From a virus (taxonomy: Duplodnaviria > Caudoviricetes): 64,000 bases of DNA. The DNA is taken from positions 22,429 through 86,428 of IMG/VR virus record IMGVR_UViG_3300032270_001157; one strand, given 5' to 3'. The translations under genes were made by a program, and so were the position numbers. The notes under the pieces were generated by a model. The model saw nothing but the letters and a program-made list of their open reading frames with translations. It did not search any database and was not told the DNA's origin. The stretch's first letter is position 1; every line of letters starts with the position of its first letter. Below, piece by piece: positions 12,201-28,575 of the stretch.

Positions 12201-13558
12201 ACAGCATTGATACTACCTAATACTAAATTATTACTAACTGTACCACTTAAATTATTAGTATTGCCTACTACAAGAGAACCATTAATATCTCTAAGAACAT
12301 TAGCCTGACCAATTAATAATAGTTGGGATGGCGCACCACTAGCAAGATTATTATTAATACCTAAAAGAATACTTTGATCAAGACCAGAATTAGTAGCGTT
12401 ACCTAGTCCGATAACAATAGACTTGGTAGTATCTTGCAGATTGATATTATTACCAACAAAAATACCACTAGAAATATTAGTGAGTGTTTGATCAGAACCG
12501 ATACAGATTAGCTTGGTGCCGGTAATTACGTCTGAGCTACCATATACTTTATTAGAATTTCCACTTAGACTAACATTAGAACCTACAACACTATTATCGT
12601 TACCAAGTAAACTATTAACATTTCCAATATAAATATTATTGTTGCCAGTATTGCTGACATAAGAACCTAACACAACACCAGAAGCGCCAGAACTCACACC
12701 AACCTGAACTAGTCCAACGCTAGTAGAAGTATTCAGACTATTATTACTTCCTAAAAGAATATTATAATTGCCAGTAATACTACTAGAATTACCAACAAAA
12801 ATATTGGATAATCCACTAAGATTAACCGAATCACCCAAAGCAGTATTATTTGCACCAATTAACCTAGAGTTATTTACTAGAGCAAAAACTTTGGCTCCAT
12901 TAAAATAATTTGAACTACCGATAACGATACCAGTATTAGATATTCCTGTGTTACTTGAACCGATATTTGTTAATCCTACTCCCGTTACAGCATTACTAAC
13001 ACCTACTACTGTATATGTATAGCCGGATACGCTATTACTACCACCAAGAATTACGTTTCTTAAATTAGCACTAAATACAGGCTTATTGGTTCCTTTATCA
13101 TCAACAGTAAATAATATTTCACCACTAGTAGATCCGGTAACAGGATCAAGAATCTTGGACATGATCTGTCCATAAACAACCTCATTATAGTTAGTATCTC
13201 GACCGGCTAAATTAACAATAGCAGGATAACTACCAGAAAGTGGAGTAGTTTGTGGATTATGCACTAGTAATAGAGTTACGCCGGTAGGGCAGTTTGTGAT
13301 ACTCTCTACAATCAAACCATCTTTTGAGCATGGAGCTACAACGTGTAATACAGCATCGGGTAATCCTGTTCCAACTCCTAGTCTACCGGTAGAAGCATCA
13401 AAATATACTAATCCATTGCCGGTGCCACGAATACTAAAATCAATATCTTGTTTAAGAGCATTAAAAGAAGTACTAATACCAGAAGTTTCTGATAATATAA
13501 TTGATGGATTAACACCAGAACCAACATATAGTGTACCAGATACTGTTTGACTACTCAT
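9215..13558 (-). CDS. Tail fibre / trimeric adhesin-like protein with YadA-head-like GxxN repeats, 1447 aa
   Basis: Long runs of short (I/V)GxxN repeats (aa ~170-630), fibre motifs RLGVGTGLPDAVLHV and RVGINTDNPTSDLAVSG, and a strong RBS (AAGGAG, 8 nt spacer). Confidence 0.7.
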   Translation of the reverse strand: MSSQTVSGTLYVGSGVNPSIILSETSGISTSFNALKQDIDFSIRGTGNGLVYFDASTGRLGVGTGLPDAVLHVVAPCSKDGLIVESITNCPTGVTLLLVHNPQTTPLSGSYPAIVNLAGRDTNYNEVVYGQIMSKILDPVTGSTSGEILFTVDDKGTNKPVFSANLRNVILGGSNSVSGYTYTVVGVSNAVTGVGLTNIGSSNTGISNTGIVIGSSNYFNGAKVFALVNNSRLIGANNTALGDSVNLSGLSNIFVGNSSSITGNYNILLGSNNSLNTSTSVGLVQVGVSSGASGVVLGSYVSNTGNNNIYIGNVNSLLGNDNSVVGSNVSLSGNSNKVYGSSDVITGTKLICIGSDQTLTNISSGIFVGNNINLQDTTKSIVIGLGNATNSGLDQSILLGINNNLASGAPSQLLLIGQANVLRDINGSLVVGNTNNLSGTVSNNLVLGSINAVPPTSNNNLVVGILNNQTGVYINSVGAISGNPSRTAGTVNNSIIVGINNLAQSGNSNVILGNKNVASGSNISAIGSYNNLKNASNAYAIGNSNFLVGDQIGTVGSKIAVVGQESMVFNTANTKMDVFGSGNIVVGYNQMVSSGIIIGTANKLNGINNIVYGRENTLGSTRNQCVVDSVGLNITVPTLGITSKYLVGDKILLCVQSPPSVNNTFVREISNVVENSIDNTTTISIGAPVAIDRANGYYSVNNAFDDNNSPNTTIVSGLVMPYQRLGGAGGTETNPIYGSNNIVVGTNNTYLYSSGVIVGYNNNVSGVRNVVIGYNISGLADNTLYMGTNNSNKMILDNDKVVFNSGAVQDNFVVKSSNDATSVLNIGLNSNRVGINTDNPTSDLAVSGLTTTSSLRVGFSAPDAYVLTTNTNGVGTWQLPVRISGTDTGLMYRVNDKVASGISEILYSPSTKQMNFNLGGNNGFYITSTGVFVNDEASTYRLRVRGSGGVEFARVLLDTNFGHQRIDFHNVSGNSGTFNNFTVNSGVNLPPSLTGTFLFVNNSGRLNSAATRANSIIFANENSWATGNTSIRWINSQQTLALGATGIVSYDSLFTNIPDSFYNIILSSTDSIDTVFNNRGLGNKFSVINSGSLNNRIGFHISPTGSVTINASSSDIANSNSSGVVLYANGKAWFKSLKIGEGATASGYYLRTDQFGNLRFSDIDLKTQFSGLYPMNITYTSQGDASFRVDIGLSSKLTDGTNMGANNDGTMLIWRGDAWVSSSGLKVYQNQTIANDPNSVRGIEFGYKPQVTQTRHNHVFAGGSIKASDEKYNGSSQYAQYYLRTRTTDGGQVRPLVTDWTKPAVGSTVVTTETTANCINLSAFSDATSYEYDRVWTYKIDISALWQLGSSSSVNPNATRNGAGIFIEGALIRTASGIRFSKLGTELTRTYGDTMPAGMSIGTQVVDSNPPRLSIVASGAAGYTAIWSATAKINQLNHIGSDPLYLN

Positions 13559-13570
13559 TATAGTTACTCC

Positions 13571-16500
13571 TTATGTTCGGAGCACTCCTTCTGTTTGAAT
13601 TGCTAGTTTGTTCATGGCTACATTTACTTCACCTAAGATCATTCTCTGAATAGGCTCTTGCATATTAGCGAATGCTGCTCCTCCATTAATAACAACCTCT
13701 ACCTTGTGTGTGCCTTGAATAGTAATCTGTGGTGGTAAGTTAAGTGCTGCAAGTTGACCAATAAATTTATTGAATGTGTTAGTAAATTGGCTTAATCCAT
13801 CCATATTTGGATTATTTGAGCCAGTATTATTAGATACACTATTTGTGGTACCTGAGGATAGTTGTTTTTGGTAATCGGACAGCATGGAAACTGCTAGTTG
13901 TAGGCTATTTGTGAACTGTTTGGTAGTTTGTGATAGAGATATAAATATTTGACCTAAATTAAACATACTACCACTCCTAACTCCAGGTATTCCTCCTTCG
14001 GATAAATAAGCCATACCACCACGACTCATATGATTGACGCCACCATTTATAGATTGTAGTAATGGTAGATTTTGCTGGGTGGCTTGACGATTAACAACAA
14101 ATTCTCCCGGAGTCAACATTGCTGGGATAGTATCAGTTCCGCGAGGCTGATAGTTAACTAAAGTTCCACGGGAAGCATAAATCATACCACCAGAGCTACG
14201 AAATGCTGGGTTACCAGCTGCTACTTGTGGATATAAAAAGCCTACAGTATTATTAATATTAAAAGGAGCTAATCTAGCAGCATTATCTTCATCACTATTT
14301 TGTGGATTAATATAACCCATCTTAGTTAATTGTTTACTAATATTATTTTTTAGCATGGCTTGTTGGGCTCGGTTCATCCCTTGTCCTCTTGCAGCCATTC
14401 TATCAATACTGCTAAAATTTCTTAATAGCTTAGAAAATGTTTTTTCTTGAGCTTTTTCTAGTTTTTTACGCTCATCCATATTACCTTGAAGATAAGTATC
14501 TCCATTATTAATTCTTAAAGCTAATGCTTCAATTTGATCTGGATTCATTCTTAATATAGCAATATCTCTAGCGCTATATTTGTAATTACCACCAGATGTT
14601 TCCTGACTCATTGCTTGAATTAATGCTTCAGCTTGATCTGGAGTAAATGGATGGAATAAATCTTGTGCGGCCCCTGCTGATAATCCGTACTGAGTTAGTA
14701 GCTTTTCATCTATCTTGTTACTACCGGTTAAATTAAACTTTTTCTTGAGTTTGGATAAAGCCTGTTCTCTCCAACCCATAAAAGCTTCTGGACTAGTAAA
14801 CTTATTGGGGGCTCCCATGCCCACAGCTTGTCCAACTGCTAACTCTAATCTGAATCGTTTAGCATTAGCCCTATTTGATGCTGCAATCTGTGCTTTATTA
14901 GCGTCCTGCTCTTGCTTTTTCCCGTGCATTTTCCACTGTTGATCTCTTTCTCTCATGGGCACATCAACAGCTATCATTCTATTTAATTTAATAATTTCAG
15001 AATTAATCTGGTCTCTTTCTCTAAGCAATCTTTCTTTATCTTTTTTCTGCTCCTCTGTCATATCCGCAGGATCAACAAAAGAGTACTGTTCTAGTTCTAG
15101 TTCTTTGTCTTTTTTCTTCTTGTTTAAAGATTGAGTTTGTTTATTAGGATCAACAGTTTGACCAGACTTTAATTTAACTGGTCCCGGTGTTGCTGGTTGG
15201 TGAACCCATCTATTGGCTTCTCTCTGATTTTCTGCTTGATTTCTGATTCTATTTGCTGTATCTACTTTATTTTTACCCCTTTGAGCAGAAGCTGTGAGGC
15301 CGTAGGTGTCTCCCGGCATTGATGTATCTGTTGCTACAGTAGCAGCGTCAACATCTCTTCCGTCTATTCTAAATACTGAAGAACTAGCTCTGGCTTGAAC
15401 TCTCTGATTTTCTAGTTCTTGTTCTCTTTTTCTCTCTTGAGCAGCTTGTTCGGCTTGTTTTTTCTCTTCTATTTTAGCTATTCTAGCTTCTTCACTCGCT
15501 GCGTGTTGTCTCTCTAAATACTGTTCTTGAGCACTAACCGCTGATTGGAATACCTCATTAGTACTATGTGTATTCCGGCCTTTGACTACTTTTCGATCAC
15601 GCCCAAAAGGTACTGAAATAGTATCTTCACTATTTAAACTATCATAAATATTAGATATCTGTTGATCTATAAATGCTTGTGTCATTAAATTGCCAACAGC
15701 GTCTTTGCGAGGTTTTGCTCCCTTTTGTAATCTTCTGCTTTCTATGTTAAATTCTGCTAATCTTTCAGCATCTCTTCTGTCCATTACATTTAATTTAAAT
15801 TCAGCTAGTGGATCATCAGCACTGCTAGATATAGTACTATTTTTGAGCATTCGGTCAGTATTGTTGTTAGAAGTGTGCATCTTTTTTGCATCACCATACA
15901 ATCCAACAGTTTCTTGTGTCAGCATATTTGCAGAAGCTATTAAGCCTGCTGTTGCTGGATCCAAACCAAATCCCATGTAGTATCCTGTGGTCAAACCTAA
16001 TTGACTAAAATTCCCTAATTGTGTATCCAACATAGTTCCTTGTTGAACACCAGTAGCTCGACCAAGCAGAGAGTGAGCACCAACATCTCCCATAGTTTCC
16101 CCAGTACCTGTAACCACCCCCAGAACAGTATTTACTGCTCTATTTCTACCAGTCTTATTAGGATCAGCCATGGCTCCACTGATAGCTCCAAAAGTTGGAC
16201 CTATTAACCTACCAACATAAGGAGCAGCCATTCTTGCAGCGCCAGAGGCTTGAGTGCCTATGTATTTTAAAGCTGTTGTAGAGGCTGCTCTAGGATTTTT
16301 AATAGCAGAACTAATATTAGAACCAACACTCTTAACTCCTTGATAAAGATTATCTAAGCCATCCATAGTGCTAGTTAGCCATCCTGGAAGTTTGGGACTT
16401 TTATAATTACTAGCCATTTCCAAAGCCCCTTGACTAGAATAAGCTCCTCGTTGACTAGTAGAGTTAATCCAGTTTCGGTAGTTGTCAAGCCATGCTTTTG

Positions 16501-19500
16501 CTCTTGGGTCTGTTGGTGCCATTTCTTCAACTTTTTTAACCTTATTAGCAAAATCAGACATATAATTAGCTATGGTTGAATCCCAAGTATCGGCGAGCGG
16601 ATCCATAGTTCCACCTGATAAATAAACCACTCCACCCTTAGCATAATTACCAGCATTAATACTCTTGAGCAATGGCAGATTGCGCTGAGTAGCTTGTCTA
16701 TTAACTACAAACTCACCCGGAGTTAACATTGCAGGAACAGTATCAGTTCCTCTTGGTTCATAATTTACTAAGGTTCCACCAGCAGCATAAACTGGACCAC
16801 CTTGTGATCTTGTCATAACAGTGCCGGGTCTGGCCAATCCCAAGTTTTGATTATTAGTCTGAGCTCCATTAAAAGCATTGGTTAATTTATCTAAAGCTGA
16901 GATCAAAGCTGTATTAGCAGTATTTAATATTTGACCCTGTTTTTCTAATAATGGATTAATAGCTCTTTGAGTAGCTTCTCCCAATGCCATTTGCTGTTGT
17001 TTGTATAAATTTTCTAGAGCTTTAATTTGTGGGTCTTGTGCTGGAGCGGCCCTTAGATTAGCAAGAATTTCTTTAAGGAAAGGATTATTCTCAACATTAA
17101 GACCTTGAGCCCGAGCAGTATTTTGGATTAAGTCTGCTCTTAAAGTGTTTGCTCTTTGCTTATCTGTAGTGTCTAAACCAGAAACTTGAATCATTTCGTT
17201 GAATAGACTAAAAGAATTTTTAGCATCAGCAGCAAAGGCATCCTGAGCAGCAGCCATAGCCTCTAAATTAGTACCACCATCTTGAATAGTTTTTCTATAA
17301 GCTTGTTGAGCAGATATTGATTGGTTGATAGTGGTGATTTGACCATTTAGTGTTCTATTAAGAAGATCATAGGTGGAATTGAGATTTCTTAATTCTGTGG
17401 GGGTGCTGGTGACTAATTTTTCTCCAAAAGAAGCACCAGCTTGAGTACGACTTTCTCTTTCTTGTACTAGCTGACCAATTTTACTCAGGGTGTCTTGCAT
17501 ATCTTGCTTAATAAGATCTGGTAAACCCTCTAGCCCCTTTTCAGTAGCCTCAATTTGTCTATTTAAACTAGCAAGAGCATCTTTTTGTTTGGCTATAAGA
17601 GAGATTACGGCTGGATCTGCTAAGTTCCCTGAACTATTTAATCTTTCAATATTACCTTCTACAGAACTTCTCTGATTAATGAGCATGGTTCTTTGATTAG
17701 TCAAATTAGCAGCTGTTAAAGAACCGGGCTTAACACCAGCATTTATAGCCGCTTCTGTATATCTGCCTGCTGATCTTTCTGTAAGAGATGTTCTACGTCC
17801 TTCTCCTAAGGCTTCTCTAAGAGATACCATGCTATCTGAAAGATAACCTTGTAAACTAGCAAACTTAGCAGTAGCTTGAGTTTGAAGTTCTGCTGCTTTT
17901 TGAACAGCATTACCATATGTATCTAAAGCTTTTTCGATAAAAGCATATTGTTTCATCATAGTGTCGAAGGCTTTTTTCTGAGAATCAATTAATTGCTTAA
18001 GCCCACCAACACTATCTATTAATGATTGAGGATCTAATACTCCGTCATTTTGTTTAATATTATCTTTAACAGCACCTTTTAATTGATTACGAATAGCATC
18101 AGAGATTCTATTATCTCCAAAAGTATTTATAAGCTGCTGAGTCAAATCTCTTGTAATATTTTCGCCTAATACTTCACCACTAGCTCCGGTCTGTTGTGCT
18201 TGAACAGCAATTCTGGTTATAGTATCTTCAGCCGAAGCACCAAATGTAGATAGTCCCTCCACAAACTTTTTATCTGTACCAAACATGCCGCTGACTTGAC
18301 TAACTGCTGTTTGGCGTTCTCTTGCTGAGTAAGCATTAGGATTCTTTAATATGTCGGTAGATTGAAACTGCGTTTTGAGAGATACTTGACCACTAGCAAT
18401 ATCATCAATTCTTTGACTAGCTCTGTCTAATCCTGTTGTGGCTGAGTCTATAGCCTGATCCATATTCTCAAAAGTTTTAGCTATACTAACAGATGATAGA
18501 TTTAATACTCTGGCAGATTGTTGTAGAGCTGTAACCCGTGCTCTTTCTGCTACCGTAGCTTGTAGTGTTGCTGTTTCTTCTTTAAAGTAGGTATCTATTA
18601 ATTCTTTTTGTCTCTGTTCAATTTCTGCTCTGATTTGTGGATCTTGACCTGCTGTTTTCTTAAGAGCTTCCAATTCTTGATTTTTAGTATTAAACTGCTT
18701 ATTTGTTTGAGCGATATTAAGCTTTGCTAATCCTTGATCTCCACCAAAAGATGATAAAGCTTGCTCAATATTTAGTCCACTTTCAACTTTAGCGGCTAGT
18801 GTTTTTAGAGCTATCTCACCACCAACTTTTTGATTAGCAGTTTCTTCTTCTCCGATTTGTGCATTGGTTGGTCGTGAGGCTTTATAAAAACCAAATGAAG
18901 CAGCTTCTAATCCACGAGTAAGCATACTAGGCTGGCGTAGCTCTGCTTGTTTAGCTGATATTTTTTCTTCTTCAGCAGCAATATCCTTGAAGTTTTTAAC
19001 TATCGAGGAGGTTAGAGCAGCATCTCTTGGATTCTTATTTAGTTTTTCTAACTGACCTTCTGCTGTAGTAGCACTATTTTCTATTTTCTTTTTGCTTAAA
19101 TCAATATCTGCTTCTTTAATAGCATTACGAAAACTATCAACAGCTAGTACAGTACCAGCTATTGCTCCTGCTAATGCTCCCCATGGACCAGCTTGTGCTC
19201 CTACAGCTATAGCTCCACCAAAAGCTGTACCAGCAGCAGCAACACCACGACCTGTGCTGCCCCCGACTGCTGCTCCAGCGGCTTCTGCTGCCATAGGAGC
19301 AGCAAATGCTAATGCTAAACCAGTATTCATATATGAAGCTCTACGATTTCTTTTAGCATCATATTGTGCTCTTTGAGCATCAGACATATTACCAACTTCT
19401 TCATCTGATGGTCCCATAACTTTACTTCTTAAAGAAGAAATGCTGCTACTGATAAAACCAGTAGTTTTAGAAGCAACACTTTGAACAGCTTGGAAGATAG

Positions 19501-22500
19501 TTTGTGTTTGTCGTGATGACTGAGCAACTTGTTGCGATGACTGAGCTGCTCTTTGTAGATTTTGATCAATAATTCTAGCAGAAGCTGCTGCTATATCTGA
19601 TGTGCTATCTCTTCTGGCTCCTTGAGGAAGAGGACCTATTAAAGTAGCATTGGAACGAGCAGTATCTATCCTATTTTGAATATAGCTATCTGTAGCTACT
19701 TTTTGGCTATTCTGAGCATTTTGTCTAGCTTCTTGAAATCCCATTCCTTTAGATCTATTGAAATTTAAAGCTTGTTGGTAAATTGCGTCCCCAAACTGCT
19801 CTATTTCCATCATTACTTTTTGTATTCTAGCTTCAACATCTCCTGGATTTGCTGATCCACCTACATTAAATCTTTGTATTCCACGAACAGCACCACCAGA
19901 ACGAAAGCCTAAAGCCTTTGTTGCAGCTTCACGAATAATGAAACTACCTACTGGTAACGATACTGGTCCAATACTATCACTAGTTCCTGATCCCGGACCC
20001 TTAAAAACACCAATACCTCCAGCAGAGAACGAACTCATTCCATTACGATCTGCTTGATTCATTTCTCTTAATTTGCCATATCCTATTGCTTTTGCTGTCT
20101 CTGGTGGAACAAAAGCTTCTCCATTAGAAACCATAGCTGGAACATTTCCACCCGCTGCATATCCTCGCATTTTCTTGAAAGATTTTTGATCACTGTTAAT
20201 CTCGTAATCTCTAACAGTGCGACCATCTTTCTTTGCATAGTCTGCAATTCTATTTTGTTTATTTATTATTGCTGCTCCAACTTTTTCTTGAATAGCAGAA
20301 GGCGGAGCTTTGTATGGTTTTAAAGAAACAGGCATAGGAATTGATCCTTCACCAAATCCTCCTACTTTCCACTGCTCTCCATAACCACCGGGAACAGGAA
20401 TTTGTTCCATAAACTGAGCTTCAGTTAAACCAGCCTTAATAATATCTTCTAGACTATACTTAAATCCTCCTCTTTGAATTAATTTTGGAGTTCCTCCTTC
20501 AGCAAACCTTTGAATAGCTCCACCACTCTTATATCCTTGAGTTTTTAGATAAGTAATAATATTATCTTCTACTGTTGATGGTCCACTAATAGTTCTTTTT
20601 GCGTCTGTTGCTATATTGCCTGGAATACCAAAATATTTAGCTGCCCCTTTTAATCCCTGTGGAAAGTCCATTCCTTGACCCTTAAGCGCTCCTGGCCCAC
20701 CGAGTTTCTGAATCATTTTTTCAAACAACACACCCTGAGCCGTAGCTTCTGCATTAGAATTGCCTGAGATTTTCCTATTTCCATAACGATATGCTTGTAT
20801 GCCTTCTTTGGATCTTGCTCTTGCAGCTTTAATATTTCTAGCATCATCATCAACAAATAATGAGCCTGGACTTAATAACGCTGCTTTAAGTTTAGCTATT
20901 TGAGATCCAGATACTCCTGGTCCTCCTAGTCCCTTAAATTGGGTAAGGGGGATTGGAAGTCCCTTGCTAGACAACCATTCTTGAACTAAGTCTAGGGTTG
21001 AAGCAGGTCGTGCTGTTATGAGTTTTAGATTGCTTAATAGCTCTGGTTTTTTAGATACGAGACCAGCTAATTCTTGTCCTAATGCGCTTAATTTGGCGCC
21101 CCTTAGTGCGGCCGATACCTTGTTTCTATCTCCAAACTCAGCAAACTTGGGAGTTCTTGGGTCAGATAAAATCTTGTCGGCACCGAAGGCTAATGTTCTA
21201 TCAAAGTCTAGATTTAATTCTTTGCCAAGACCAGTTTTAGCTAGAATATCAGCAATCATAACCTTTTTAGCGGCTCTTCCTGCACTTTTATTAAGGGAAG
21301 AATTAAAGGATTCTTCTATAGAACTAGCTACCGCAGGATCCATTATGCCACTAACAATTCTAACATCAACAGGAGCTTTAAGCTGATCAGAAGTGATTTT
21401 TTTATTGATTGGAGAGAATGGAGACCCTAACATACCAGCCGCCCCGAATAATAATCCCTTAGACGTTATTCTGGTTGTTCTGGCTTGTTGCGCTCCAGAT
21501 AATCTATTTTGTTTTTTGGTGAATTCTGCTAGAATAGCTGCTTTACTTGCTGCTTGGGCTTCTGTTGGAGCGCGCTTATTTAATGTAGTATATACATCTG
21601 TTGCACTAATACCTCCAGCCTTAGCAGCTGTTTCTAGACCTAATAATTTAATGATTTCACTAGTTGTTGCTTTTTTACCAGATGTTGGGGTTACTACGCC
21701 AGCATCCGCAAATTTAGAAATTGATCCGCCACTAGCAAGATATTTTCTCATTTCTTGTGTGGTCTTTTTTCTACCAGCTACATTCTCTAATTTATAAACA
21801 CTTTTTTCTTCAAACCCCTTAATTAAATTAGTTGCATCTGCTTTACTTAAAACATTTTTAATACTTTTTGATAACAGACCGGGCATAATCTTGCTGACAT
21901 CATTAGCATCTGTATCATAAAATGTTGGATATGACGCAACAGAGTTTGCTAGTTCTTGTTGAATAGCAGGATAGTTATTGTTTAATAATTGTTGAGCTAT
22001 TGATGAGGACTGCCCTGTGAATCGATATTTTTTACCACCAGACTTTAATGTTTTAAATACATCCTTAGATCTAATATAAGAAGCAAGTTTACTACTCAAA
22101 ACTCCTTGTAAATCTGGTGCCTTAGCCCAATTGCTGTTCCATGACTGTGGTAAATCTAAACCCATATTTGAATATATGCCAGCAACGGATAATTGTTTTT
22201 TCTGTAAATACTTTTTCAGTTTAGGAGAAAAAGAGTCTGGTTCCAGTCTAGCGTCTAAATGAGTAAAATGAGTAGCTGATGATGTTGGGAGTTCTTGTTT
22301 TTTCTTTGCTGCTTTCCCTGCTCCAGCCCTGTTTAAATCATAAAGTCTGTTGAGCCCAATATTACGAACAGCCTTTTTGTTCATAACAAACTCTCCCGGC
22401 GTTAACATTGCCGGAACAACATCTCCGTCTCCATAACCCGGAACATGACCACCAGAAGCAAAGGCTCTAATTGGTCCACCTTGACTATTTCTATTGGGTC

Positions 22501-24043
22501 TCATTCCACCAATAAATCCTCTACTAAACTGACCTAGTGCAGATAATCCTCTTAATGCGAAAATAGCTCCTAAAGCTGGTAGTGCTCCTTTAGCAGCATC
22601 TGTGAGTCTAATTAAATTACTAGTTAAGTCTAAAGATAGTTTAACGAAGGATTGAAATCCAGAGCTTTGTCCAATAGATCGAACTAAACCTACAAATTCA
22701 TTTCTTACTTTTGCCATTTGAACAGCTAATGATTGTTGTGCTGTTGCGGCATCAGTAGCTAAAGAGTCTTGTCCTGTTTGAGCAACTTTTAATGCTGCTT
22801 GGGCAGTTGCGAACTGTTGAATTAATGGAATCACCTTACCAATCTGACGAAAGCCACCAAGTTCTTCTACGATTCTGGAGAACTTTAAATCTCTGGGGTC
22901 TAATTGAGATAATCCTTCGCTCAATCTTCTAACAGCCTCATATGGTCCAACGAACTTACCTTGTAAATCTGTTAATGTAACACCATATTCTTTAAGGGCA
23001 TCGATTGTATCCCCTCTTTGAATTCTGGTAAAAATTGTTCTTAAACCAGTAGCAATGGTTTCGGCGCTTTCACGAGTTGTAGCACGAACACTGGTGAACA
23101 CAGCCATGAATTCATTTAGGGCTTGAGTACCTTCACTAACTCCCTTACTAGCTGTAGCAAACACACCACCGGTACGCTGAATAGCAGTAATAATGTCACC
23201 GGCTTCAACAGCAAACTTAGCAGCTACCGCATTTACTGAACCTAATGCTCGATCTAATTCGCCAGCACTAATACCGAACTGTCTCATCAATGCGATACTA
23301 CCTTCTACGGTACTATTCAAGTTATCGAATGATGGAGCTAATGCACTAAGAGCCAAAGCTTTTAATGCCTTCTCTGTATCTCTAGCACTTAAGCCAGCCT
23401 GAGCCAATGTACTAGATACTTTAATTAATTCATTAGATGACACACCGAACTTAGTAGATAAATCAGTAATTTCGGCAACTAATCCACCAAGATTTTTAAC
23501 TGATGTATCAGTAACCTGAGATACTCTAACCAATTCTTGATTAAAAGCAATAAAGTCTGTTGTTGCAGATGTTAGGGCGTTAGATACTTTATAAATCACT
23601 CCTGTTACTGTGGCAAAGGCGGCAAATCTACGAACAGCCAATGCTGACTGCTGACCAAACTCTCTAAATGCTGAAGTAGTCCCATGAACAGCAGCAGTAG
23701 CAGCAGCATTTTGTTGAGTTACATTTTGTGTGGCATTATTTATTTGTTGTAAATTAGCTGGTAAATTACCAGCACTATTATTAACTTGTTGTATAGCAGT
23801 CCCAAGATTTCTCAGAGATATTGCTGTAGCGTTTGCTGAAGCATTAGTGGCCTGTAGAGTATTATTAAAAGCTCTAAAAGTTTGATTAAGAGCACCGATA
23901 TTGCGGGCCACACCGGGATCCAAGCGAACATTAACATTAGCATTAATAGTTCCTAGTTGTCGCCTAATATCGGCAACAATAGTCCTAATGTTAGATGGTC
24001 CTCGTAAATTTAACTCAGCTGTAAGATTAAAACCTCTAGCCAT
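13571..24043 (-). CDS. Tail tape measure protein (TP901-type core) with inserted cargo domains, 3490 aa
   Basis: Ala/Gln-rich helical N-terminus with a TP901-like core (FNQELVRVSQVT..DLSTKFGVSSNEL..LAQAGLSA), a hydrophobic Gly/Ala segment at ~19140-19330, repeated PAMLTPGEFV motifs typical of TMP C-terminal regions, and a position downstream of the tail tube and chaperone genes. Confidence 0.92.
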   Translation of the reverse strand: MARGFNLTAELNLRGPSNIRTIVADIRRQLGTINANVNVRLDPGVARNIGALNQTFRAFNNTLQATNASANATAISLRNLGTAIQQVNNSAGNLPANLQQINNATQNVTQQNAAATAAVHGTTSAFREFGQQSALAVRRFAAFATVTGVIYKVSNALTSATTDFIAFNQELVRVSQVTDTSVKNLGGLVAEITDLSTKFGVSSNELIKVSSTLAQAGLSARDTEKALKALALSALAPSFDNLNSTVEGSIALMRQFGISAGELDRALGSVNAVAAKFAVEAGDIITAIQRTGGVFATASKGVSEGTQALNEFMAVFTSVRATTRESAETIATGLRTIFTRIQRGDTIDALKEYGVTLTDLQGKFVGPYEAVRRLSEGLSQLDPRDLKFSRIVEELGGFRQIGKVIPLIQQFATAQAALKVAQTGQDSLATDAATAQQSLAVQMAKVRNEFVGLVRSIGQSSGFQSFVKLSLDLTSNLIRLTDAAKGALPALGAIFALRGLSALGQFSRGFIGGMRPNRNSQGGPIRAFASGGHVPGYGDGDVVPAMLTPGEFVMNKKAVRNIGLNRLYDLNRAGAGKAAKKKQELPTSSATHFTHLDARLEPDSFSPKLKKYLQKKQLSVAGIYSNMGLDLPQSWNSNWAKAPDLQGVLSSKLASYIRSKDVFKTLKSGGKKYRFTGQSSSIAQQLLNNNYPAIQQELANSVASYPTFYDTDANDVSKIMPGLLSKSIKNVLSKADATNLIKGFEEKSVYKLENVAGRKKTTQEMRKYLASGGSISKFADAGVVTPTSGKKATTSEIIKLLGLETAAKAGGISATDVYTTLNKRAPTEAQAASKAAILAEFTKKQNRLSGAQQARTTRITSKGLLFGAAGMLGSPFSPINKKITSDQLKAPVDVRIVSGIMDPAVASSIEESFNSSLNKSAGRAAKKVMIADILAKTGLGKELNLDFDRTLAFGADKILSDPRTPKFAEFGDRNKVSAALRGAKLSALGQELAGLVSKKPELLSNLKLITARPASTLDLVQEWLSSKGLPIPLTQFKGLGGPGVSGSQIAKLKAALLSPGSLFVDDDARNIKAARARSKEGIQAYRYGNRKISGNSNAEATAQGVLFEKMIQKLGGPGALKGQGMDFPQGLKGAAKYFGIPGNIATDAKRTISGPSTVEDNIITYLKTQGYKSGGAIQRFAEGGTPKLIQRGGFKYSLEDIIKAGLTEAQFMEQIPVPGGYGEQWKVGGFGEGSIPMPVSLKPYKAPPSAIQEKVGAAIINKQNRIADYAKKDGRTVRDYEINSDQKSFKKMRGYAAGGNVPAMVSNGEAFVPPETAKAIGYGKLREMNQADRNGMSSFSAGGIGVFKGPGSGTSDSIGPVSLPVGSFIIREAATKALGFRSGGAVRGIQRFNVGGSANPGDVEARIQKVMMEIEQFGDAIYQQALNFNRSKGMGFQEARQNAQNSQKVATDSYIQNRIDTARSNATLIGPLPQGARRDSTSDIAAASARIIDQNLQRAAQSSQQVAQSSRQTQTIFQAVQSVASKTTGFISSSISSLRSKVMGPSDEEVGNMSDAQRAQYDAKRNRRASYMNTGLALAFAAPMAAEAAGAAVGGSTGRGVAAAGTAFGGAIAVGAQAGPWGALAGAIAGTVLAVDSFRNAIKEADIDLSKKKIENSATTAEGQLEKLNKNPRDAALTSSIVKNFKDIAAEEEKISAKQAELRQPSMLTRGLEAASFGFYKASRPTNAQIGEEETANQKVGGEIALKTLAAKVESGLNIEQALSSFGGDQGLAKLNIAQTNKQFNTKNQELEALKKTAGQDPQIRAEIEQRQKELIDTYFKEETATLQATVAERARVTALQQSARVLNLSSVSIAKTFENMDQAIDSATTGLDRASQRIDDIASGQVSLKTQFQSTDILKNPNAYSARERQTAVSQVSGMFGTDKKFVEGLSTFGASAEDTITRIAVQAQQTGASGEVLGENITRDLTQQLINTFGDNRISDAIRNQLKGAVKDNIKQNDGVLDPQSLIDSVGGLKQLIDSQKKAFDTMMKQYAFIEKALDTYGNAVQKAAELQTQATAKFASLQGYLSDSMVSLREALGEGRRTSLTERSAGRYTEAAINAGVKPGSLTAANLTNQRTMLINQRSSVEGNIERLNSSGNLADPAVISLIAKQKDALASLNRQIEATEKGLEGLPDLIKQDMQDTLSKIGQLVQERESRTQAGASFGEKLVTSTPTELRNLNSTYDLLNRTLNGQITTINQSISAQQAYRKTIQDGGTNLEAMAAAQDAFAADAKNSFSLFNEMIQVSGLDTTDKQRANTLRADLIQNTARAQGLNVENNPFLKEILANLRAAPAQDPQIKALENLYKQQQMALGEATQRAINPLLEKQGQILNTANTALISALDKLTNAFNGAQTNNQNLGLARPGTVMTRSQGGPVYAAGGTLVNYEPRGTDTVPAMLTPGEFVVNRQATQRNLPLLKSINAGNYAKGGVVYLSGGTMDPLADTWDSTIANYMSDFANKVKKVEEMAPTDPRAKAWLDNYRNWINSTSQRGAYSSQGALEMASNYKSPKLPGWLTSTMDGLDNLYQGVKSVGSNISSAIKNPRAASTTALKYIGTQASGAARMAAPYVGRLIGPTFGAISGAMADPNKTGRNRAVNTVLGVVTGTGETMGDVGAHSLLGRATGVQQGTMLDTQLGNFSQLGLTTGYYMGFGLDPATAGLIASANMLTQETVGLYGDAKKMHTSNNNTDRMLKNSTISSSADDPLAEFKLNVMDRRDAERLAEFNIESRRLQKGAKPRKDAVGNLMTQAFIDQQISNIYDSLNSEDTISVPFGRDRKVVKGRNTHSTNEVFQSAVSAQEQYLERQHAASEEARIAKIEEKKQAEQAAQERKREQELENQRVQARASSSVFRIDGRDVDAATVATDTSMPGDTYGLTASAQRGKNKVDTANRIRNQAENQREANRWVHQPATPGPVKLKSGQTVDPNKQTQSLNKKKKDKELELEQYSFVDPADMTEEQKKDKERLLRERDQINSEIIKLNRMIAVDVPMRERDQQWKMHGKKQEQDANKAQIAASNRANAKRFRLELAVGQAVGMGAPNKFTSPEAFMGWREQALSKLKKKFNLTGSNKIDEKLLTQYGLSAGAAQDLFHPFTPDQAEALIQAMSQETSGGNYKYSARDIAILRMNPDQIEALALRINNGDTYLQGNMDERKKLEKAQEKTFSKLLRNFSSIDRMAARGQGMNRAQQAMLKNNISKQLTKMGYINPQNSDEDNAARLAPFNINNTVGFLYPQVAAGNPAFRSSGGMIYASRGTLVNYQPRGTDTIPAMLTPGEFVVNRQATQQNLPLLQSINGGVNHMSRGGMAYLSEGGIPGVRSGSMFNLGQIFISLSQTTKQFTNSLQLAVSMLSDYQKQLSSGTTNSVSNNTGSNNPNMDGLSQFTNTFNKFIGQLAALNLPPQITIQGTHKVEVVINGGAAFANMQEPIQRMILGEVNVAMNKLAIQTEGVLRT
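20530..20760 (-). other. Putative PD-(D/E)xK restriction-endonuclease-fold domain embedded in the TMP
   Basis: Pattern GVLFEKMI...MDFP...TDAKRT matches the E..D..(D/E)xK arrangement of REase-fold toxin domains. Confidence 0.5.
20780..21225 (-). other. HAD-superfamily phosphatase domain embedded in the TMP
   Basis: All four HAD motifs occur in order: motif I LDFDRTL (DxDxT), motif II LITARP, motif III Lys (KLK), motif IV LFVDDDARNI. Confidence 0.8.
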
Positions 24044-24127: not shown

Positions 24128-24991
24128 TCAGGTAGGAGTCTCTGGGGCTGATGGAGTTGGTGTTGTTTCATCTTGTTTAGTTTCTTCTTTATTGCTTTCT
24201 AATACAACGGGCTTTCCTTCTTCGTCCAAAAATGGCTGTGCTTCAACTACATAGTCACCTTCTAGATCTACCCTATTGCCGAACTTATCAACAAAGTTAC
24301 CCTGCTCATCAATGAAACGATTATTCTCATCGATCAACCTACCTTCTGCATCAACCAAACGACCCTGCTTATCAACAAGCCTTAGTTTATCATCAACAAA
24401 TTTATACTTCTGTAAAAACTTGTTTTCTGGTAAAGTTTTCTCAAAATTATTATCCAATCCATAAATTATGTTAGCCAATTTTTGAGCACCGAGCAAAGCT
24501 ACTGGATCATCTGCTTTGTTCAAATACTCTTCCAAACTCTTAAAATAAGGCTCATTAGTATCTTTATACACCACACAAACAGATACTAAATAATTAAACC
24601 TAGCATTATCAGCTTGACCTTCGGCACTATGATTATCTAGAGATGTACGAACACTAATTAGGTCTCTTATTTCAGCCCTAATTTCTTTCATCTTTAAAGC
24701 AAGGTCTTTAGCATCCTTTAGACCGAAACCACCCTTAGCTAATCTTTTTTCTCCGTCTAATAGTTCTTGTTGCAGGTCAGAGAACTTCTTCTGCTTTTCT
24801 CTATTCCATAATCCTTGTTCTTCTAAGAGATCATCCATCTTGGCTCTAACCACAGACTTGCTCTTAATAGCGTCTGTGAAGGCTTGGTTATAAGTCTTCT
24901 GAGCTTCTCTCTGATCATTTAAAGAGGGTGAACGAACAAGGAAATGCTTCTCTACATTATCAACAACCACACTAAAGGTATCAGTTTTCAT
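24128..24991 (-). CDS. Putative tail assembly chaperone, 287 aa
   Basis: Directly upstream of the TMP, highly charged and helical, with a C-terminal 7-aa VDxxGxx repeat tract. Confidence 0.55.
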   Translation of the reverse strand: MKTDTFSVVVDNVEKHFLVRSPSLNDQREAQKTYNQAFTDAIKSKSVVRAKMDDLLEEQGLWNREKQKKFSDLQQELLDGEKRLAKGGFGLKDAKDLALKMKEIRAEIRDLISVRTSLDNHSAEGQADNARFNYLVSVCVVYKDTNEPYFKSLEEYLNKADDPVALLGAQKLANIIYGLDNNFEKTLPENKFLQKYKFVDDKLRLVDKQGRLVDAEGRLIDENNRFIDEQGNFVDKFGNRVDLEGDYVVEAQPFLDEEGKPVVLESNKEETKQDETTPTPSAPETPT

Positions 24992-24992
24992 A

Positions 24993-25286
24993 TTAATTGT
25001 CCTTTTTAATTACCGGAAATGAATAGCTATATTGTGTCTTAAATACTCCACCGTACTTATAGAAGTCTTCTTTGATATTTCTAATCTGAGTATTGCCATG
25101 ATTTAAAATTTGATTGCGAGTATAATCCCACATATCTGCAAACTCTTCTTCTTTTTCTGTGAGATCTCCATCTTTATCGTGGCCCCACAAAAAACCAAAA
25201 TTTTCCTCCATACGAGCTAATGCTCCAATCATGGTTGTTTGAATTCTTTTTTCCATATAAAATCTAAGTCTCTCTGGATCGTACAT
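24993..25286 (-). CDS. Hypothetical protein (tail chaperone region), 97 aa
   Basis: Tightly packed ORF with a 1-nt gap to the next gene; acidic/aromatic composition. Confidence 0.7.
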   Translation of the reverse strand: MYDPERLRFYMEKRIQTTMIGALARMEENFGFLWGHDKDGDLTEKEEEFADMWDYTRNQILNHGNTQIRNIKEDFYKYGGVFKTQYSYSFPVIKKDN

Positions 25287-25290
25287 AAAA

Positions 25291-26331
25291 CTATTCCTTA
25301 TTATTTAATTGTTGCATTATCCTTTGTTTAACATCTGGCAATTGAGCATCCGGAATCCTCGTCCCTATATTTGAGTTTGTTACAAAGTCCACCTTTTGTT
25401 TAAGAGTAGACAAACCCAGTTCGTTATTAAGTCCAATTATATCGTCTGCTTGTTCTTTATTTCCTGCCATCAAAAATACTTCTGAAGCATTCTTCAATTT
25501 ACCTGTCAGTATATTTTCTACACCCTTTTCCTTTTTTTGTCTATCATTTTCTTGTTTATGAAATAACATCCAACCATCTAGAGCATCATCATCATTAATA
25601 ATATCTTGTGGAGGACATTCAGGATGTTCATATATTCTATCATACATATATGAAATATTTATCAAGCTTTTTTGTTCTTCAGACCATTCTTTAACACAAT
25701 CATCTAATATGTTACTTTTATTATTATTCCAATAATTTCTCCAGTATTCACTTCTGGCGATACTCTTAAATGTTACTACATCTATCATGTTTTGAGAGAT
25801 ATGAGAAGCTAAACTATTGAAAGTATTATAGTTAATATTAGTATTATCAAAAATTAAATTGTTTGTATCATACTCATATAAAGTATTACTAATTAAAAAT
25901 TCATTTTTAATATTATCACAATAATGTTCTAAAGTAATATAATCTAAGCAATGTTGTTTTTGTAAAAATTGATCAATTTCTTTTTTTAGATCTTTAATTT
26001 TACTTTGAATTTTCTTTTTTTTAGTATTATCGAAATACTGTTGATATAATAAAATTTTATTAGACTCTAAGCTTTTTTCTATTTTAGCTACTATTTTTTT
26101 ATAGTCCCACGGCAAGAGCTGCAAATCAAATAATAGATTTTCAATATCTTCTAGAAACCAAAAATCGCTATATAGATTATCATTATAAGCAGAAGAGTAA
26201 AGAATATCTGCTTGGAGCTTTAAAGATAAAGAAGGTTTCCTAAGCTCATAAATAACATCGTCATAAACAAAAACTTGCTTACCAGATAAAATCCTATGAA
26301 CTAGTATCTCATTTTTTCTAGATTCATTCAC
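25291..26331 (-). CDS. Hypothetical protein, possible tail assembly chaperone, 346 aa
   Basis: GTG start overlaps the upstream TGA (GTGA coupling). Lies between the tube gene and the TMP. Confidence 0.65.
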   Translation of the reverse strand: MNESRKNEILVHRILSGKQVFVYDDVIYELRKPSLSLKLQADILYSSAYNDNLYSDFWFLEDIENLLFDLQLLPWDYKKIVAKIEKSLESNKILLYQQYFDNTKKKKIQSKIKDLKKEIDQFLQKQHCLDYITLEHYCDNIKNEFLISNTLYEYDTNNLIFDNTNINYNTFNSLASHISQNMIDVVTFKSIARSEYWRNYWNNNKSNILDDCVKEWSEEQKSLINISYMYDRIYEHPECPPQDIINDDDALDGWMLFHKQENDRQKKEKGVENILTGKLKNASEVFLMAGNKEQADDIIGLNNELGLSTLKQKVDFVTNSNIGTRIPDAQLPDVKQRIMQQLNNKE

Positions 26332-26480
26332 ATTGATTGTTCTTGAGAAATAATAGAAGCTTGTAATTTAGAGATGTCTTTTTCTCTATCTTCTAATTTT
26401 TTTTGTAAATTTTCTATTATTTTTTGACTTTGCAACAAATCTAAATACAACTTACCGATTGTTGAAAAAATTTCATCCAT
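26328..26480 (-). CDS. Small coiled-coil protein, 50 aa (MDEIFSTIGKLYLDLLQSQKIIENLQKKLEDREKDISKLQASIISQEQSM)
   Basis: Below the track cutoff and translated manually. RBS GAGGA 5 nt upstream of ATG 26480; its TGA overlaps the GTG of the next gene; it fills the gap after the tube gene. Confidence 0.7.
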   Translation of the reverse strand: MDEIFSTIGKLYLDLLQSQKIIENLQKKLEDREKDISKLQASIISQEQSM

Positions 26481-26534
26481 AATAGTCCTCGAACCATGTT
26501 CTTTTGATATAAATTTACTCTAGCAACTGTGTTA

Positions 26535-27590
26535 TTAGTAGTCAGTACCAATAACTGGTAGACCAGCTTCAATAACATCTGCAAAGTTTTGGCCAATACC
26601 GCCAGTGGGTGGAGTATAGGTAAAATCACTATAAGTTTGATAGCTATAAGTGATTGTAGCATTACCACCGTCTGTACCACCACCAGCATAGCTAACTGAC
26701 TGGAGCTTGTTTTTAGTTCCAAGATCAAGTCTAGTACCATCGCATAATGCAATAAGAATCTTTTTATTACTAAGAGCCTTAGGATTACTGCAATTAGCAT
26801 TACTTGAACCTTCGACACCAACCATATCGCCAGTATTAGCAGTTACTTCAATTTCGGTTGAAATTTCAACTGGGAATTTGATATAACGATAGAAAGGTGT
26901 TCTACTACCTAGCTCACGAATTTGTTCACGACCAAGATTCATGCTAACCTTAACACTATTAATCTTAATACCGGCTGGAATTCCTCCAGAAACTGATCGA
27001 ACATTTACGTCTCCAGTAGTTCCGGTTGGAAGAACAGTAAGAGCTTGACTCCATAAACCACGACGCAAAATACCAACACCCGATGGGCTGTCGGCAACAG
27101 GAGCGCTAGCAGTTGAAGTTAGTGAAGTAGCCCATGTTTTATCATTACTAACTATTGTAACTTCTTCTGTAAAATTGCCGTCTGTTGGGAAATTATAGCT
27201 TACAGAAGATAAATAAGAAGGTGTGCATTCTACTACAGCAGCGGGAACTCCAGTAGCATTAGTATTGGTGTCAGGATATAGAAGTAATTTAACACCACAA
27301 CGATTGTTAGCTAAGTCAGCTAAATTACCACTACCCATAGCCATTTGATAGATTGTGGGAAAACCGTCTAGAACCTTATTGAGAGTAATTTCAACTTCTG
27401 GAATTTCTTCATAGTTGTCATAAAGAGATAATTGACCAAGTTGATATACTGGCTCAAGATTGAAATTAGTATTCATGCCTACACTTTGTAGACCTTGTAC
27501 GGAGTCATAATCAGGATTTTTAACGCCCTTGGTTCCTGATGGACCAGCTAATTGAACAGATTGGCAGGCATAATAAATACGATTGGCCAT
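26535..27590 (-). CDS. Major tail tube protein, 351 aa
   Basis: Tube-like beta motifs (VQGLQSVGMNTNFNLEPVYQLGQLSLYD..PEVEITLNKVLDG; LGREQIRELG), strong RBS GGAGA, and canonical position between the terminator-like gene and the chaperones/TMP. Confidence 0.75.
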   Translation of the reverse strand: MANRIYYACQSVQLAGPSGTKGVKNPDYDSVQGLQSVGMNTNFNLEPVYQLGQLSLYDNYEEIPEVEITLNKVLDGFPTIYQMAMGSGNLADLANNRCGVKLLLYPDTNTNATGVPAAVVECTPSYLSSVSYNFPTDGNFTEEVTIVSNDKTWATSLTSTASAPVADSPSGVGILRRGLWSQALTVLPTGTTGDVNVRSVSGGIPAGIKINSVKVSMNLGREQIRELGSRTPFYRYIKFPVEISTEIEVTANTGDMVGVEGSSNANCSNPKALSNKKILIALCDGTRLDLGTKNKLQSVSYAGGGTDGGNATITYSYQTYSDFTYTPPTGGIGQNFADVIEAGLPVIGTDY

Positions 27591-27612
27591 GAGGGTGTCT
27601 CCATTAATTTGG

Positions 27613-28575
27613 CTAAATGATAACTTCAGTCGTTAATCTTAAAGTACACCAATATAAATTTTTATTTCTGCTTTCCATGTCTAAAATTGATACTTCTTTC
27701 AAATAACACCTTTTCCATCTGTACGATGGATTAAGGACTAAATCGCAATAATTTTTACCATTATTATTGATAGAACCCTGGTAATTTAATGGATTTACTC
27801 CGCTGTTTATTACCTTTTGGATATCATATAGCCATAAAGTTTTTTGTTTTTGCAAGCGTATAATATCGGCTATTTTATTTTTGTCAGAAGAGTTTTCTGC
27901 AAAAACATGCAATAATATATCCTGATTAACAGCAAAATCATGAGCACCCATTTGCCAAGGTTGAGAATAACTGCTAGCAATTGGTTCAATAACTACGCAG
28001 GGCATTTGAATTCTGTGATTAGAAGATATTGCATAATCACCTTTATCCTTTTGATTAATAGCTGGTGCTGGGCTATAGGTCATACTCTGTAGTTCCACCC
28101 AATAAGGATCCGTACTACTTTTGTATGTTTGACACCACCTATAAGAATATTCAAGTTTAACAGCCGATCCAGCTGCTAAGGGTTTATCGAATACTACTTG
28201 TCCAAGAGGATAATTTATACGATAACCAATAGACCCACTACCAGTTGGAGATGGATAAAAAGTAGTACCAATACTAACTCCAGAAATGCGTGTTGGTTGA
28301 GTACCATTAAATGCAACACCTGTTTCCCAAACCCAATCCTTTTTGGGACTCTGCCATATTTGACCCTTAGCAAAGCCGGGTTGTTCTGAGATTTTTAATT
28401 CATGGAATGAGCCACCATACAAACCACTAGTTGGAATTTTTACATTAACAAAACCACCTATATTTAGAAAGCCCCAGTCTAAAAATCCTTTTAAGTTTTC
28501 TTCTAGTTCGTTTAATAAGGTATTACCACCCAATGAGGTAATTGTATTAAATTTTGTATAGTCTTCACAACTCAT
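27613..28575 (-). CDS. Putative tail completion/terminator protein, 320 aa
   Basis: Directly upstream of the tube gene. C-terminal MPCVVIEP..QDILLHVFAENSSDKNKIADII resembles tail-terminator folds, with an inserted beta domain (INYPLGQVVFDKP). Confidence 0.5.
   Translation of the reverse strand: MSCEDYTKFNTITSLGGNTLLNELEENLKGFLDWGFLNIGGFVNVKIPTSGLYGGSFHELKISEQPGFAKGQIWQSPKKDWVWETGVAFNGTQPTRISGVSIGTTFYPSPTGSGSIGYRINYPLGQVVFDKPLAAGSAVKLEYSYRWCQTYKSSTDPYWVELQSMTYSPAPAINQKDKGDYAISSNHRIQMPCVVIEPIASSYSQPWQMGAHDFAVNQDILLHVFAENSSDKNKIADIIRLQKQKTLWLYDIQKVINSGVNPLNYQGSINNNGKNYCDLVLNPSYRWKRCYLKEVSILDMESRNKNLYWCTLRLTTEVII

What the first reader, a model, noticed from the sequence alone, without database searches (positions are those of the whole stretch)
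20530..20760. Probable PD-(D/E)xK nuclease-fold domain directly after the HAD domain in the TMP
Seen: GVLFEKMI..MDFP..TDAKRT, closed by the SGGAIQRFAEGG delimiter. This matches the E/D/(D/E)xK order of REase-fold toxin domains. The segment at ~21230-21700 upstream of the HAD may be the first half of the same domain, with the HAD nested inside. Inference: an injected nuclease or a catalytically altered nucleic-acid-binding effector, like the polyvalent proteins described for phages and conjugative elements.
Basis: partly seen in the sequence, partly recalled or inferred. Interest (0 to 1): 0.72.

Follow-up and report, generated by a model that had tools for sequence, protein, structure and literature searches.

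The report
Orphan nuclease-like domain in tape measure
A giant phage tail "ruler" protein carries a conserved, undescribed two-part domain, split by a phosphatase cassette, whose invariant acidic and basic residues look like a restriction-nuclease active site; no profile or structure search could confirm that it is a nuclease.

Summary
The letters are at the stated coordinates: aa 1095-1172 of a 3490-aa tape measure protein (TMP) in an uncultured phage contig of 86 kb, about 58% complete.

The bare E..D..(D/E)xK pattern is at chance level in this protein. What is significant is its conservation. In 87 copies from 85 protein clusters, nearly all giant TMPs, D1126, an acidic residue at 1147 and K1149 are invariant. 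R1150, T1151 and G1104 are nearly invariant. E1108 is E in 77 copies and Q in 10.

A confident AlphaFold model (pLDDT 87.6) puts E1108 on a helix, D1126 beside a beta bridge and D1147-x-K1149 on a strand.

An N half (aa 784-938) and this C half are the constant unit. The T4-Pnkp-like HAD phosphatase lies between them, is missing, or follows C in different relatives.

Membership in the PD-(D/E)xK superfamily is not shown:
- Pfam, NCBIfam, PADLOC and PDB sequence searches gave no hit, and PHROGs gave only chance-level ones.
- hhalign against five member families stayed at background level, while three of those families recognised each other.
- HAD hits filled the fold-search lists, so the N-C fold was never compared.

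First readers flagged the same motif family on other DNA. Verdict: a real, undescribed cargo domain; its nuclease function is plausible but unproven.

The parts
13571..24043 (-). 3490-aa tape measure protein (P0001) that carries the module
   Evidence: ORF list and translation. PF10145 PhageMin_Tail at aa 191-384 with E 1.2e-24, and phrog_28 tail length tape measure.
21695..21742 (-). Upstream Gly-Gly delimiter (aa 768-783, YLASGG..FADAG) that opens the module
   Evidence: Read from the translation.
21230..21694 (-). N half of the host domain (aa 784-938): three short helices, a long helix, three beta strands and a long helix. It has no invariant charged residue; G870 is nearly invariant.
   Evidence: AF2 model with pLDDT about 80-93 here. 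It aligns in all 37 relatives, including those where the HMM did not detect it. It sits directly next to C in HAD-less relatives.
20771..21229 (-). Nested HAD phosphatase cassette (aa 939-1091). All four motifs are present: DFDRT, TAR, Lys, DDD.
20528..20770 (-). C half (aa 1092-1172), the finding itself: helix with E1108, loop with D1126-F-P-x-G-L, short helix, strand with T-D1147-A-K1149-R-T, then a final helix with a conserved Tyr
   Evidence: Alignment of 87 copies and per-column counts. AF2 secondary structure with pLDDT 85-93.
20720..20722 (-). Codon of E1108 (helix Glu; E in 77 and Q in 10 of 87 copies)
20666..20668 (-). Codon of D1126 (invariant, 87/87)
20591..20605 (-). Codons of D1147-A-K1149-R1150-T1151. 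The acidic residue and the Lys are invariant; Arg is 80/87 and Thr 83/87.
20492..20527 (-). Closing delimiter SGG..FAEGG (aa 1173-1184)
   Evidence: A GG is conserved at this place in the relatives.

Best explanation
Residues 1092-1172 are the C-terminal half of a conserved two-part globular domain (N, aa 784-938, plus C). This domain is a cargo module of giant tape measure proteins. A T4-Pnkp-like HAD 3'-phosphatase cassette has been inserted into it. The C half carries an invariant cluster: helix Glu/Gln, Asp, Asp/Glu-x-Lys-Arg-Thr. I read this cluster as a divalent-metal and phosphate-binding active site of the restriction-endonuclease (PD-(D/E)xK) type. The most likely function is a nucleic-acid phosphodiesterase or end-processing enzyme. 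It would leave the tail with the TMP at infection and work beside the phosphatase on host or phage nucleic acid. Shown: the domain family exists, its site is conserved, the architecture is split, and the HAD fold is real. Inferred: metal-dependent catalysis, a nucleic-acid substrate, and delivery into the host.
For: 1. Conservation. The 87 copies come from 85 clusters formed at 50% identity. They keep D1126, an acidic 1147 and K1149 without exception, and R1150, T1151 and G1104 almost always.
2. Structure. The AF2 model (mean pLDDT 87.6; 85-93 across C) puts the Glu on a helix, the Asp next to a beta bridge and DxK in an 8-residue strand. That is the order and type of elements of the REase motif.
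3. Modularity. C is a mobile unit found as N-HAD-C, N-C, N-C-HAD and as extra diverged copies, so it has a role of its own. It is nonetheless linked to HAD in most proteins and in two different orders.
5. Charge. The module is basic, pI about 10.
6. Precedent. The 5002-aa TMP of Thermus phage P23-45 carries a working virion RNA polymerase (PMC10770324).
Against: No sequence or profile method links C to any nuclease family.
- Pfam, NCBIfam and PADLOC scans of 42 members gave nothing, PHROGs gave only chance-level matches, and a PDB profile search gave one chance-level hit.
- hhalign probabilities were 1.3% (Mrr_cat), 0.28% (YraN), 0.25% (NucS_C), 0.15% (VRR_NUC) and 0.13% (the phages' own PDDEXK_1). 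Unrelated pairs such as HAD against Mrr_cat score about the same.
- Mrr_cat, YraN and NucS_C recognise each other at 84-93%.
- In the model the strand at the Asp is reduced to a single bridge residue followed by Pro, and a short helix separates it from the DxK strand. That is not the canonical beta2-beta3 hairpin.
- If the three N strands are the meander of the sheet, DxK would sit on the fourth strand rather than the third.
- The helix Glu is Gln in 10 of 87 copies.
Confidence: 0.35

Rival explanations
1. N-C is an enzyme or ligand-binding domain with a fold of its own, not PD-(D/E)xK. Its acidic/Lys-Arg-Thr cluster would bind a phosphate-bearing substrate: a nucleic-acid end, a nucleotide or a signalling nucleotide. 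It would present that substrate to the inserted HAD phosphatase or act on it, without cutting phosphodiester bonds as a restriction-type nuclease does.
For: No member family is recognised by any profile method, while classic members recognise one another. The D-to-DxK segment and the beta-beta-beta-alpha...beta order of N-C differ from the canonical core. HAD is tied to N-C in most relatives and in two different orders. A Lys-Arg-Thr run is typical of phosphate binding (general knowledge). Another agent's note on a 240-residue TMP domain reports a confident fold matching nothing solved (e1-5697229, unchecked; same family not shown).
Against: N-C survives repeated loss of the HAD with its site intact, so it is not just an accessory of the phosphatase. 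Three invariant acidic or basic positions in E/D/(D/E)xK order remain the simplest match to a known catalytic site.
Confidence: 0.3
2. N-C is a non-catalytic structural or assembly module of the TMP. It might contact the tail tube, the chaperone, the leading DNA end, or the host membrane or wall during ejection. The conserved charged residues would then form salt bridges or a binding surface.
For: The family is found only inside giant TMP-like proteins. No free-standing homologue of 53-244 aa was found, and the C-motif DNA pattern has no hit in 185,579 species genomes. It occupies a fixed slot between Gly-Gly delimiters. The N half has no invariant polar residue.
Against: Absolute invariance of one Asp, one acidic residue and one Lys at 25-35% overall identity is more typical of catalysis or ligand binding than of packing. 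Many TMPs of this group lack the module or carry two diverged copies, which argues against an essential structural role.
Confidence: 0.2
3. The motif is a chance arrangement in a low-constraint linker of the TMP.
For: The bare pattern is as frequent in shuffled sequence as in the real protein: 8 against 8.3.
Against: There are 87 homologous copies with invariant motif residues, and the fold is predicted confidently.
Confidence: 0.02

Closest known systems
PD-(D/E)xK (restriction-endonuclease-like) superfamily, minimal members such as Mrr_cat (PF04471), NucS_C (PF01939) and YraN/UPF0102 (PF02021)
   Same: The motif order is the same: helix Glu, Asp, (D/E)xK followed by Arg/Thr, then a helix with a conserved aromatic residue. 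The secondary-structure elements that carry them are of the same type. The best hhalign paths to Mrr_cat and NucS_C line up Glu with Glu and DxKR with Q/ExKR.
   Different: The scores are at background: 0.25-1.3% probability, no better than HAD against Mrr_cat. These three families find each other at 84-93%. C has no strand between helix 1 and the Asp. A Pro-x-Gly-Leu-Gly turn and a short helix lie between Asp and DxK. The fourth and fifth strands that follow in Mrr are missing, and three strands come from the N half instead.
T4 polynucleotide kinase-phosphatase (Pnkp) and Pnkp1 of the Pnkp1/Rnl/Hen1 RNA-repair complex
   Different: The partner here is not a P-loop kinase, since no Walker motif is present. 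The phosphatase is inserted inside the partner domain rather than appended. The whole unit lies inside a virion tape measure protein.
Thermus phage P23-45 gp96, a 5002-residue TMP with an N-terminal virion RNA polymerase (PMC10770324)
   Same: It is a giant tape measure protein that carries a working enzyme delivered at infection. This is the experimental precedent for TMP-borne cargo.
   Different: The enzyme is different, it sits at the N-terminus, and there is no Gly-Gly-delimited cassette array. No homology to this module was seen.
Polyvalent proteins of phages and conjugative elements (Iyer et al. 2017, PMC5512222) and TMP-related CIS effectors Sle1 (PMC13277306)
   Same: These are large delivered proteins built from swappable effector modules.
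   Different: The 2017 survey mentions neither tape measure proteins, nor HAD phosphatases, nor this domain. Sle1 belongs to contractile injection systems of Actinobacteria.

Membership tests
PD-(D/E)xK nuclease superfamily | Conserved acidic/acidic/(D/E)xK residues in the order helix - strand - strand | tested here: met
   D1126, acidic 1147 and K1149 are invariant in 87 copies; E1108 is 77 E plus 10 Q. They lie on a helix, next to a beta bridge and on a strand in the AF2 model.
PD-(D/E)xK nuclease superfamily | alpha-beta-beta-beta-alpha-beta core, with Asp at the start of strand 2 and (D/E)xK on strand 3 of the same hairpin | tested here: inconclusive
   Only the secondary structure could be read. 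C alone has one bridge residue and one long strand, and three more strands come from N. Fold searches of the whole model listed only HAD matches covering residues 144-308.
PD-(D/E)xK nuclease superfamily | Detectable profile similarity to at least one member family | tested here: inconclusive
   Pfam scans of 42 members gave no clan member. hhalign gave 1.3% to Mrr_cat, 0.28% to YraN, 0.25% to NucS_C, 0.15% to VRR_NUC and 0.13% to PDDEXK_1. Controls: Mrr_cat/YraN/NucS_C reach 84-93% among themselves. The true members PDDEXK_1 and VRR_NUC reach only 0.15-5% against them, so the test lacks power for divergent members. Only 5 of more than 100 clan families were tried.
PD-(D/E)xK nuclease superfamily | Metal-dependent cleavage of DNA or RNA | not testable with these tools
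   This needs a biochemical assay.
Mrr_cat (PF04471) | A match to the family profile at or near its cut-off | tested here: not met
   No hit in hmmscan at E up to 10, nor in a six-frame search of the contig. hhalign to a 26-sequence Mrr_cat alignment scored 15.1. That is within the range of unrelated pairs, although only 2 of 200 column shuffles reach it.
HAD phosphatase superfamily (the nested cassette) | Motifs I-IV (DxDxT, T/S, K, DD) on a Rossmann-like fold | tested here: met
Phage tape measure protein | PhageMin_Tail/TP901-type core in a long ORF within the tail module | tested here: met
   PF10145 at E 1.2e-24 and phrog_28. Homologues carry PF10145, and a source names one a TP901 family tape measure protein.
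Polyvalent proteins (Iyer et al. 2017) | Several unrelated effector domains in one polypeptide that is delivered with the DNA | tested here: inconclusive
   Several delimiter-bounded modules are present, but only the HAD is identified as an enzyme. Delivery cannot be tested here.

The most novel reading that the evidence does not exclude
N-C is a nucleic-acid enzyme with a new or strongly permuted fold. Together with the Pnkp-like 3'-phosphatase nested inside it, it would form a ready-made end-processing or repair kit that giant-tailed phages inject through the tape measure protein. The kit could clean or cut RNA or DNA ends produced by host defence nucleases, or prepare the entering genome end, before any phage gene is expressed.
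Probability: 0.15. Interest if true: 0.8.

Novelty: new variant of a known kind. Interest (0 to 1): 0.5.

Why it matters
Tape measure proteins were long seen as passive rulers. The P23-45 case showed that they can carry a working enzyme into the cell. This study defines a domain family that is absent from Pfam, NCBIfam, PADLOC and the PDB and has no annotated PHROG match. It occurs in at least 85 protein clusters from uncultured phages whose contigs run up to about 240 kb. It has an enzyme-like invariant site and a polynucleotide-phosphatase cassette nested inside it. If it is active, these phages deliver a two-enzyme unit acting on nucleic acid at the very first moment of infection. That would bear on how phages escape RNA- or DNA-targeting defences. 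It would also add a new catalytic scaffold, or a very divergent REase. If it is inactive, it is still a clear example of domain-in-domain insertion and cassette exchange in virion proteins.

Tried and rejected
- Single-sequence Pfam and PDB searches of the module and of C found nothing.
- Single-sequence AF2 of aa 784-1184 was useless, pLDDT 42.
- tblastn of the module against 50,697 phage records found no match.
- A single-protein scan of viral contigs found none. Only the alignment-based scan worked.
- PHROGs, NCBIfam and PADLOC scans of 42 C members gave only chance-level or no hits.
- A PDB profile search with C gave one chance hit, a formate dehydrogenase at E 0.9.
- ESM Atlas found nothing usable. 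Its own model of fragment P0082 has pLDDT 0.47.
- Foldseek PDB, VIA-align wide and BFVD searches of the good model returned only HAD matches. They say nothing about N-C.
- I looked for free-standing small homologues and found none of 53-244 aa.
A DNA pattern for [ND]-I-P-T-[DE]-V-K-R-T-L found no match in 185,579 species genomes. The window's own sequence does not fit that sub-pattern, so this only weakly suggests that there are no prophage copies.
- hhalign against E. coli Mrr as a single sequence, and against a low-diversity Mrr set, gave nothing.
- I suspected a helix-hairpin-helix motif in the first three helices of N (LG-x-x-GV-K-x-x-LGIGDR in many relatives). Pfam scans of 37 members gave no HhH hit, so this stays unverified.
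- I rejected several alternative classes because their defining motifs are absent: lytic transglycosylase, polymerase-beta nucleotidyltransferase, 2H phosphoesterase, P-loop kinase and RNase-H-like DEDD. This rests on reading the alignment, not on a formal test.
- Genomes flagged as unpublished (G040, G057, G087, G127) were left out of every alignment.

Full report
**Where it lies.** The window is part of an 86-kb IMG/VR viral contig estimated to be 58% complete. The finding lies on the minus strand inside one ORF, 13571-24043, of 3490 aa. This ORF is a tape measure protein (TMP): PF10145 matches aa 191-384 at E 1.2e-24, and phrog_28 and phrog_167 also match. Residue r begins at window nt 24043-3(r-1). 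The stated range 20530-20760 is therefore aa 1095-1172.

**Is it more than chance?** The bare pattern E-x(10-30)-D-x(10-30)-[DE]xK is not. It occurs 8 times in this TMP and 8.3 +/- 2.7 times in shuffles. The signal comes from homologues. An exhaustive phmmer search with aa 784-1184 against 1.84 billion cluster representatives found 85 proteins. Nearly all of them are 1,900-7,900 aa long. Local jackhmmer split the query into three parts: N (784-925), HAD (926-1091) and C (1092-1184). It located 87 C copies. Their conservation is as follows:
- D1126 is invariant, 87/87.
- Position 1147 is D in 53 copies and E in 34.
- K1149 is invariant, 87/87.
- R1150 is 80/87, T1151 83/87 and G1104 86/87.
- G1130, L1131 and F1138 are above 90%.
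- E1108 is E in 77 copies and Q in 10.

The consensus is G-x3-E ... h-D-[FY]-P-x-G-L-G-x-A-A-x2-F ... P-T-[DE]-x-K-R-T ...

**Structure.** A single-sequence fold failed, with pLDDT 42. I fetched DNA loci for relatives and built a 37-sequence alignment, A2. The second fold was confident: mean pLDDT 87.6, and 85-93 over C. In model numbering, where protein residue = model + 783:

| Part | Elements |
|---|---|
| N | three short helices, helix 45-78, strands 82-90, 96-100 and 109-117, helix 120-155 |
| HAD | about 156-308 |
| C | helix 313-330 (E1108), isolated bridge at 344 (next to D1126), short helix 349-354, strand 362-369 (D1147-x-K1149), helix 373-388 |

The motif residues thus sit on the kinds of element expected for a PD-(D/E)xK site. 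C alone, however, has only one real strand. An eight-residue strand predicted this confidently must pair with other strands.

**Is the HAD nested in a split domain?** The evidence supports this.
- The N region aligns in all 37 relatives, including those where the HMM had not detected it.
- Seven representatives have N directly followed by C with no HAD. So do viral loci L028 and L045 and L046 and L048.
- In L044 the order is N-C-HAD.
- On a maximum-likelihood tree of the C domains, the HAD-less forms lie inside a well-supported clade (99/94) together with HAD-bearing forms. Supported branches force at least two changes, and all outgroups carry the HAD. The cassette was therefore lost repeatedly while N-C stayed intact.
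- The short extra C copies in P0005, P0065 and P0073 have no detectable N. They do keep about 95 residues between the delimiter and C.

**Is it a PD-(D/E)xK domain?** Every profile test was negative or at background.
- Pfam on 42 C members and on 37 whole modules gave no nuclease family.
- NCBIfam and PADLOC gave nothing, and PHROGs gave only chance-level matches. A PDB profile search gave one chance hit.
- I built alignments of five bona fide member families and compared profiles with hhalign. The five were the related phages' own PDDEXK_1 exonuclease (present in 25 of 34 related contigs), Mrr_cat, YraN, VRR_NUC and NucS_C.
- C scored 1.3% to Mrr_cat, 0.28% to YraN, 0.25% to NucS_C, 0.15% to VRR_NUC and 0.13% to PDDEXK_1.
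- The alignment paths to Mrr_cat and NucS_C do pair Glu with Glu and DxKR with QxKR or ExKR, and only 2 of 200 column shuffles reach the Mrr_cat score. Unrelated pairs score the same, though: HAD against Mrr_cat 15.0 and HAD against YraN 15.8, compared with C against Mrr_cat 15.1. I do not count this as support.
- The controls cut both ways. Mrr_cat, YraN and NucS_C find each other at 84-93%. The true members PDDEXK_1 and VRR_NUC reach only 0.15-5% against them. A negative result therefore cannot exclude a divergent member.

**Distribution.**
- The profile search found no free-standing protein of 53-244 aa with this domain.
- A DNA pattern for the commonest form of the KRT motif has no match in 185,579 species genomes.
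- 41 loci were found in viral contigs of 17 to 238 kb. Several are complete, and two have terminal repeats.
- No phage record in GenBank/INPHARED matches the module.

The family thus seems confined to giant TMPs of uncultured phages.

**Mechanism.** The best reading, at about 0.35, is that N-C is a nucleic-acid phosphodiesterase or end-processing domain with a REase-type metal site. It would be delivered with the TMP and work beside a polynucleotide-type 3'-phosphatase. Close behind, at 0.3, is a non-REase phosphate- or nucleotide-binding or catalytic domain with its own fold. A purely structural role is given 0.2. A TMP carrying a working virion enzyme has a precedent in P23-45 gp96 (PMC10770324). 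The polyvalent-protein survey of 2017 does not cover TMPs, HAD or this domain.

**Earlier notes of this scan.** First readers flagged the same motif family in other genomes (e1-5852059, e1-5703111, e1-5632550). One of these shares 142 of 166 words with locus L046. Follow-up agents on other TMP "nuclease-like" domains reached the same open verdict (e1-5697229, e1-5737458, e1-5653186). I could not check whether those are the same family. These notes are leads, not evidence.

Noticed in passing
window 21575-21670 (aa 792-823) and the same columns of alignment A2: The first three short helices of the N half carry a pattern like a helix-hairpin-helix DNA-binding motif. Many relatives read L-G-x-x-G-V-K-x-x-L-G-I-G-D-R-T; the window reads LGLETAAKAGGISATD. 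Pfam scans of 37 members gave no HhH hit.
   Followed up: partly
L044:1399-2200 (IMGVR_UViG_3300033061_001635): In this 175-kb phage the order is N-C, then a short Gly-rich linker, then HAD. The phosphatase follows C instead of lying between N and C.
   Followed up: partly
L051-L075 (related viral contigs): 25 of 34 related phage contigs, and all 9 that are at least 90% complete, encode a separate canonical PDDEXK_1 (RecB/Cas4-like) protein of about 355 aa. These phages therefore already have an ordinary PD-(D/E)xK nuclease elsewhere in the genome.
   Followed up: partly
P0041 (7122 aa), P0005, P0043, P0065, P0073: Some giant TMPs carry two HAD cassettes (P0041 at 2278-2432 and 3482-3637). Others carry a second, strongly diverged C-type copy in an earlier slot.
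   Followed up: no
window 21743-22291 (aa 585-767): The module just upstream, between the PAMLTPGEFV unit and the YLASGG delimiter, has no Pfam hit above chance. It was not studied further.
   Followed up: no
window 34760-46864 and 2055-7505, minus strand: The window holds two further very long ORFs, of 4034 aa and 1816 aa. Neither was examined.
   Followed up: no
window 9215-13558, 7517-9193 and 24128-28575: Seven neighbouring tail-region ORFs gave no Pfam family above the curated cut-offs. This phage group is poorly covered by current family libraries.
   Followed up: no
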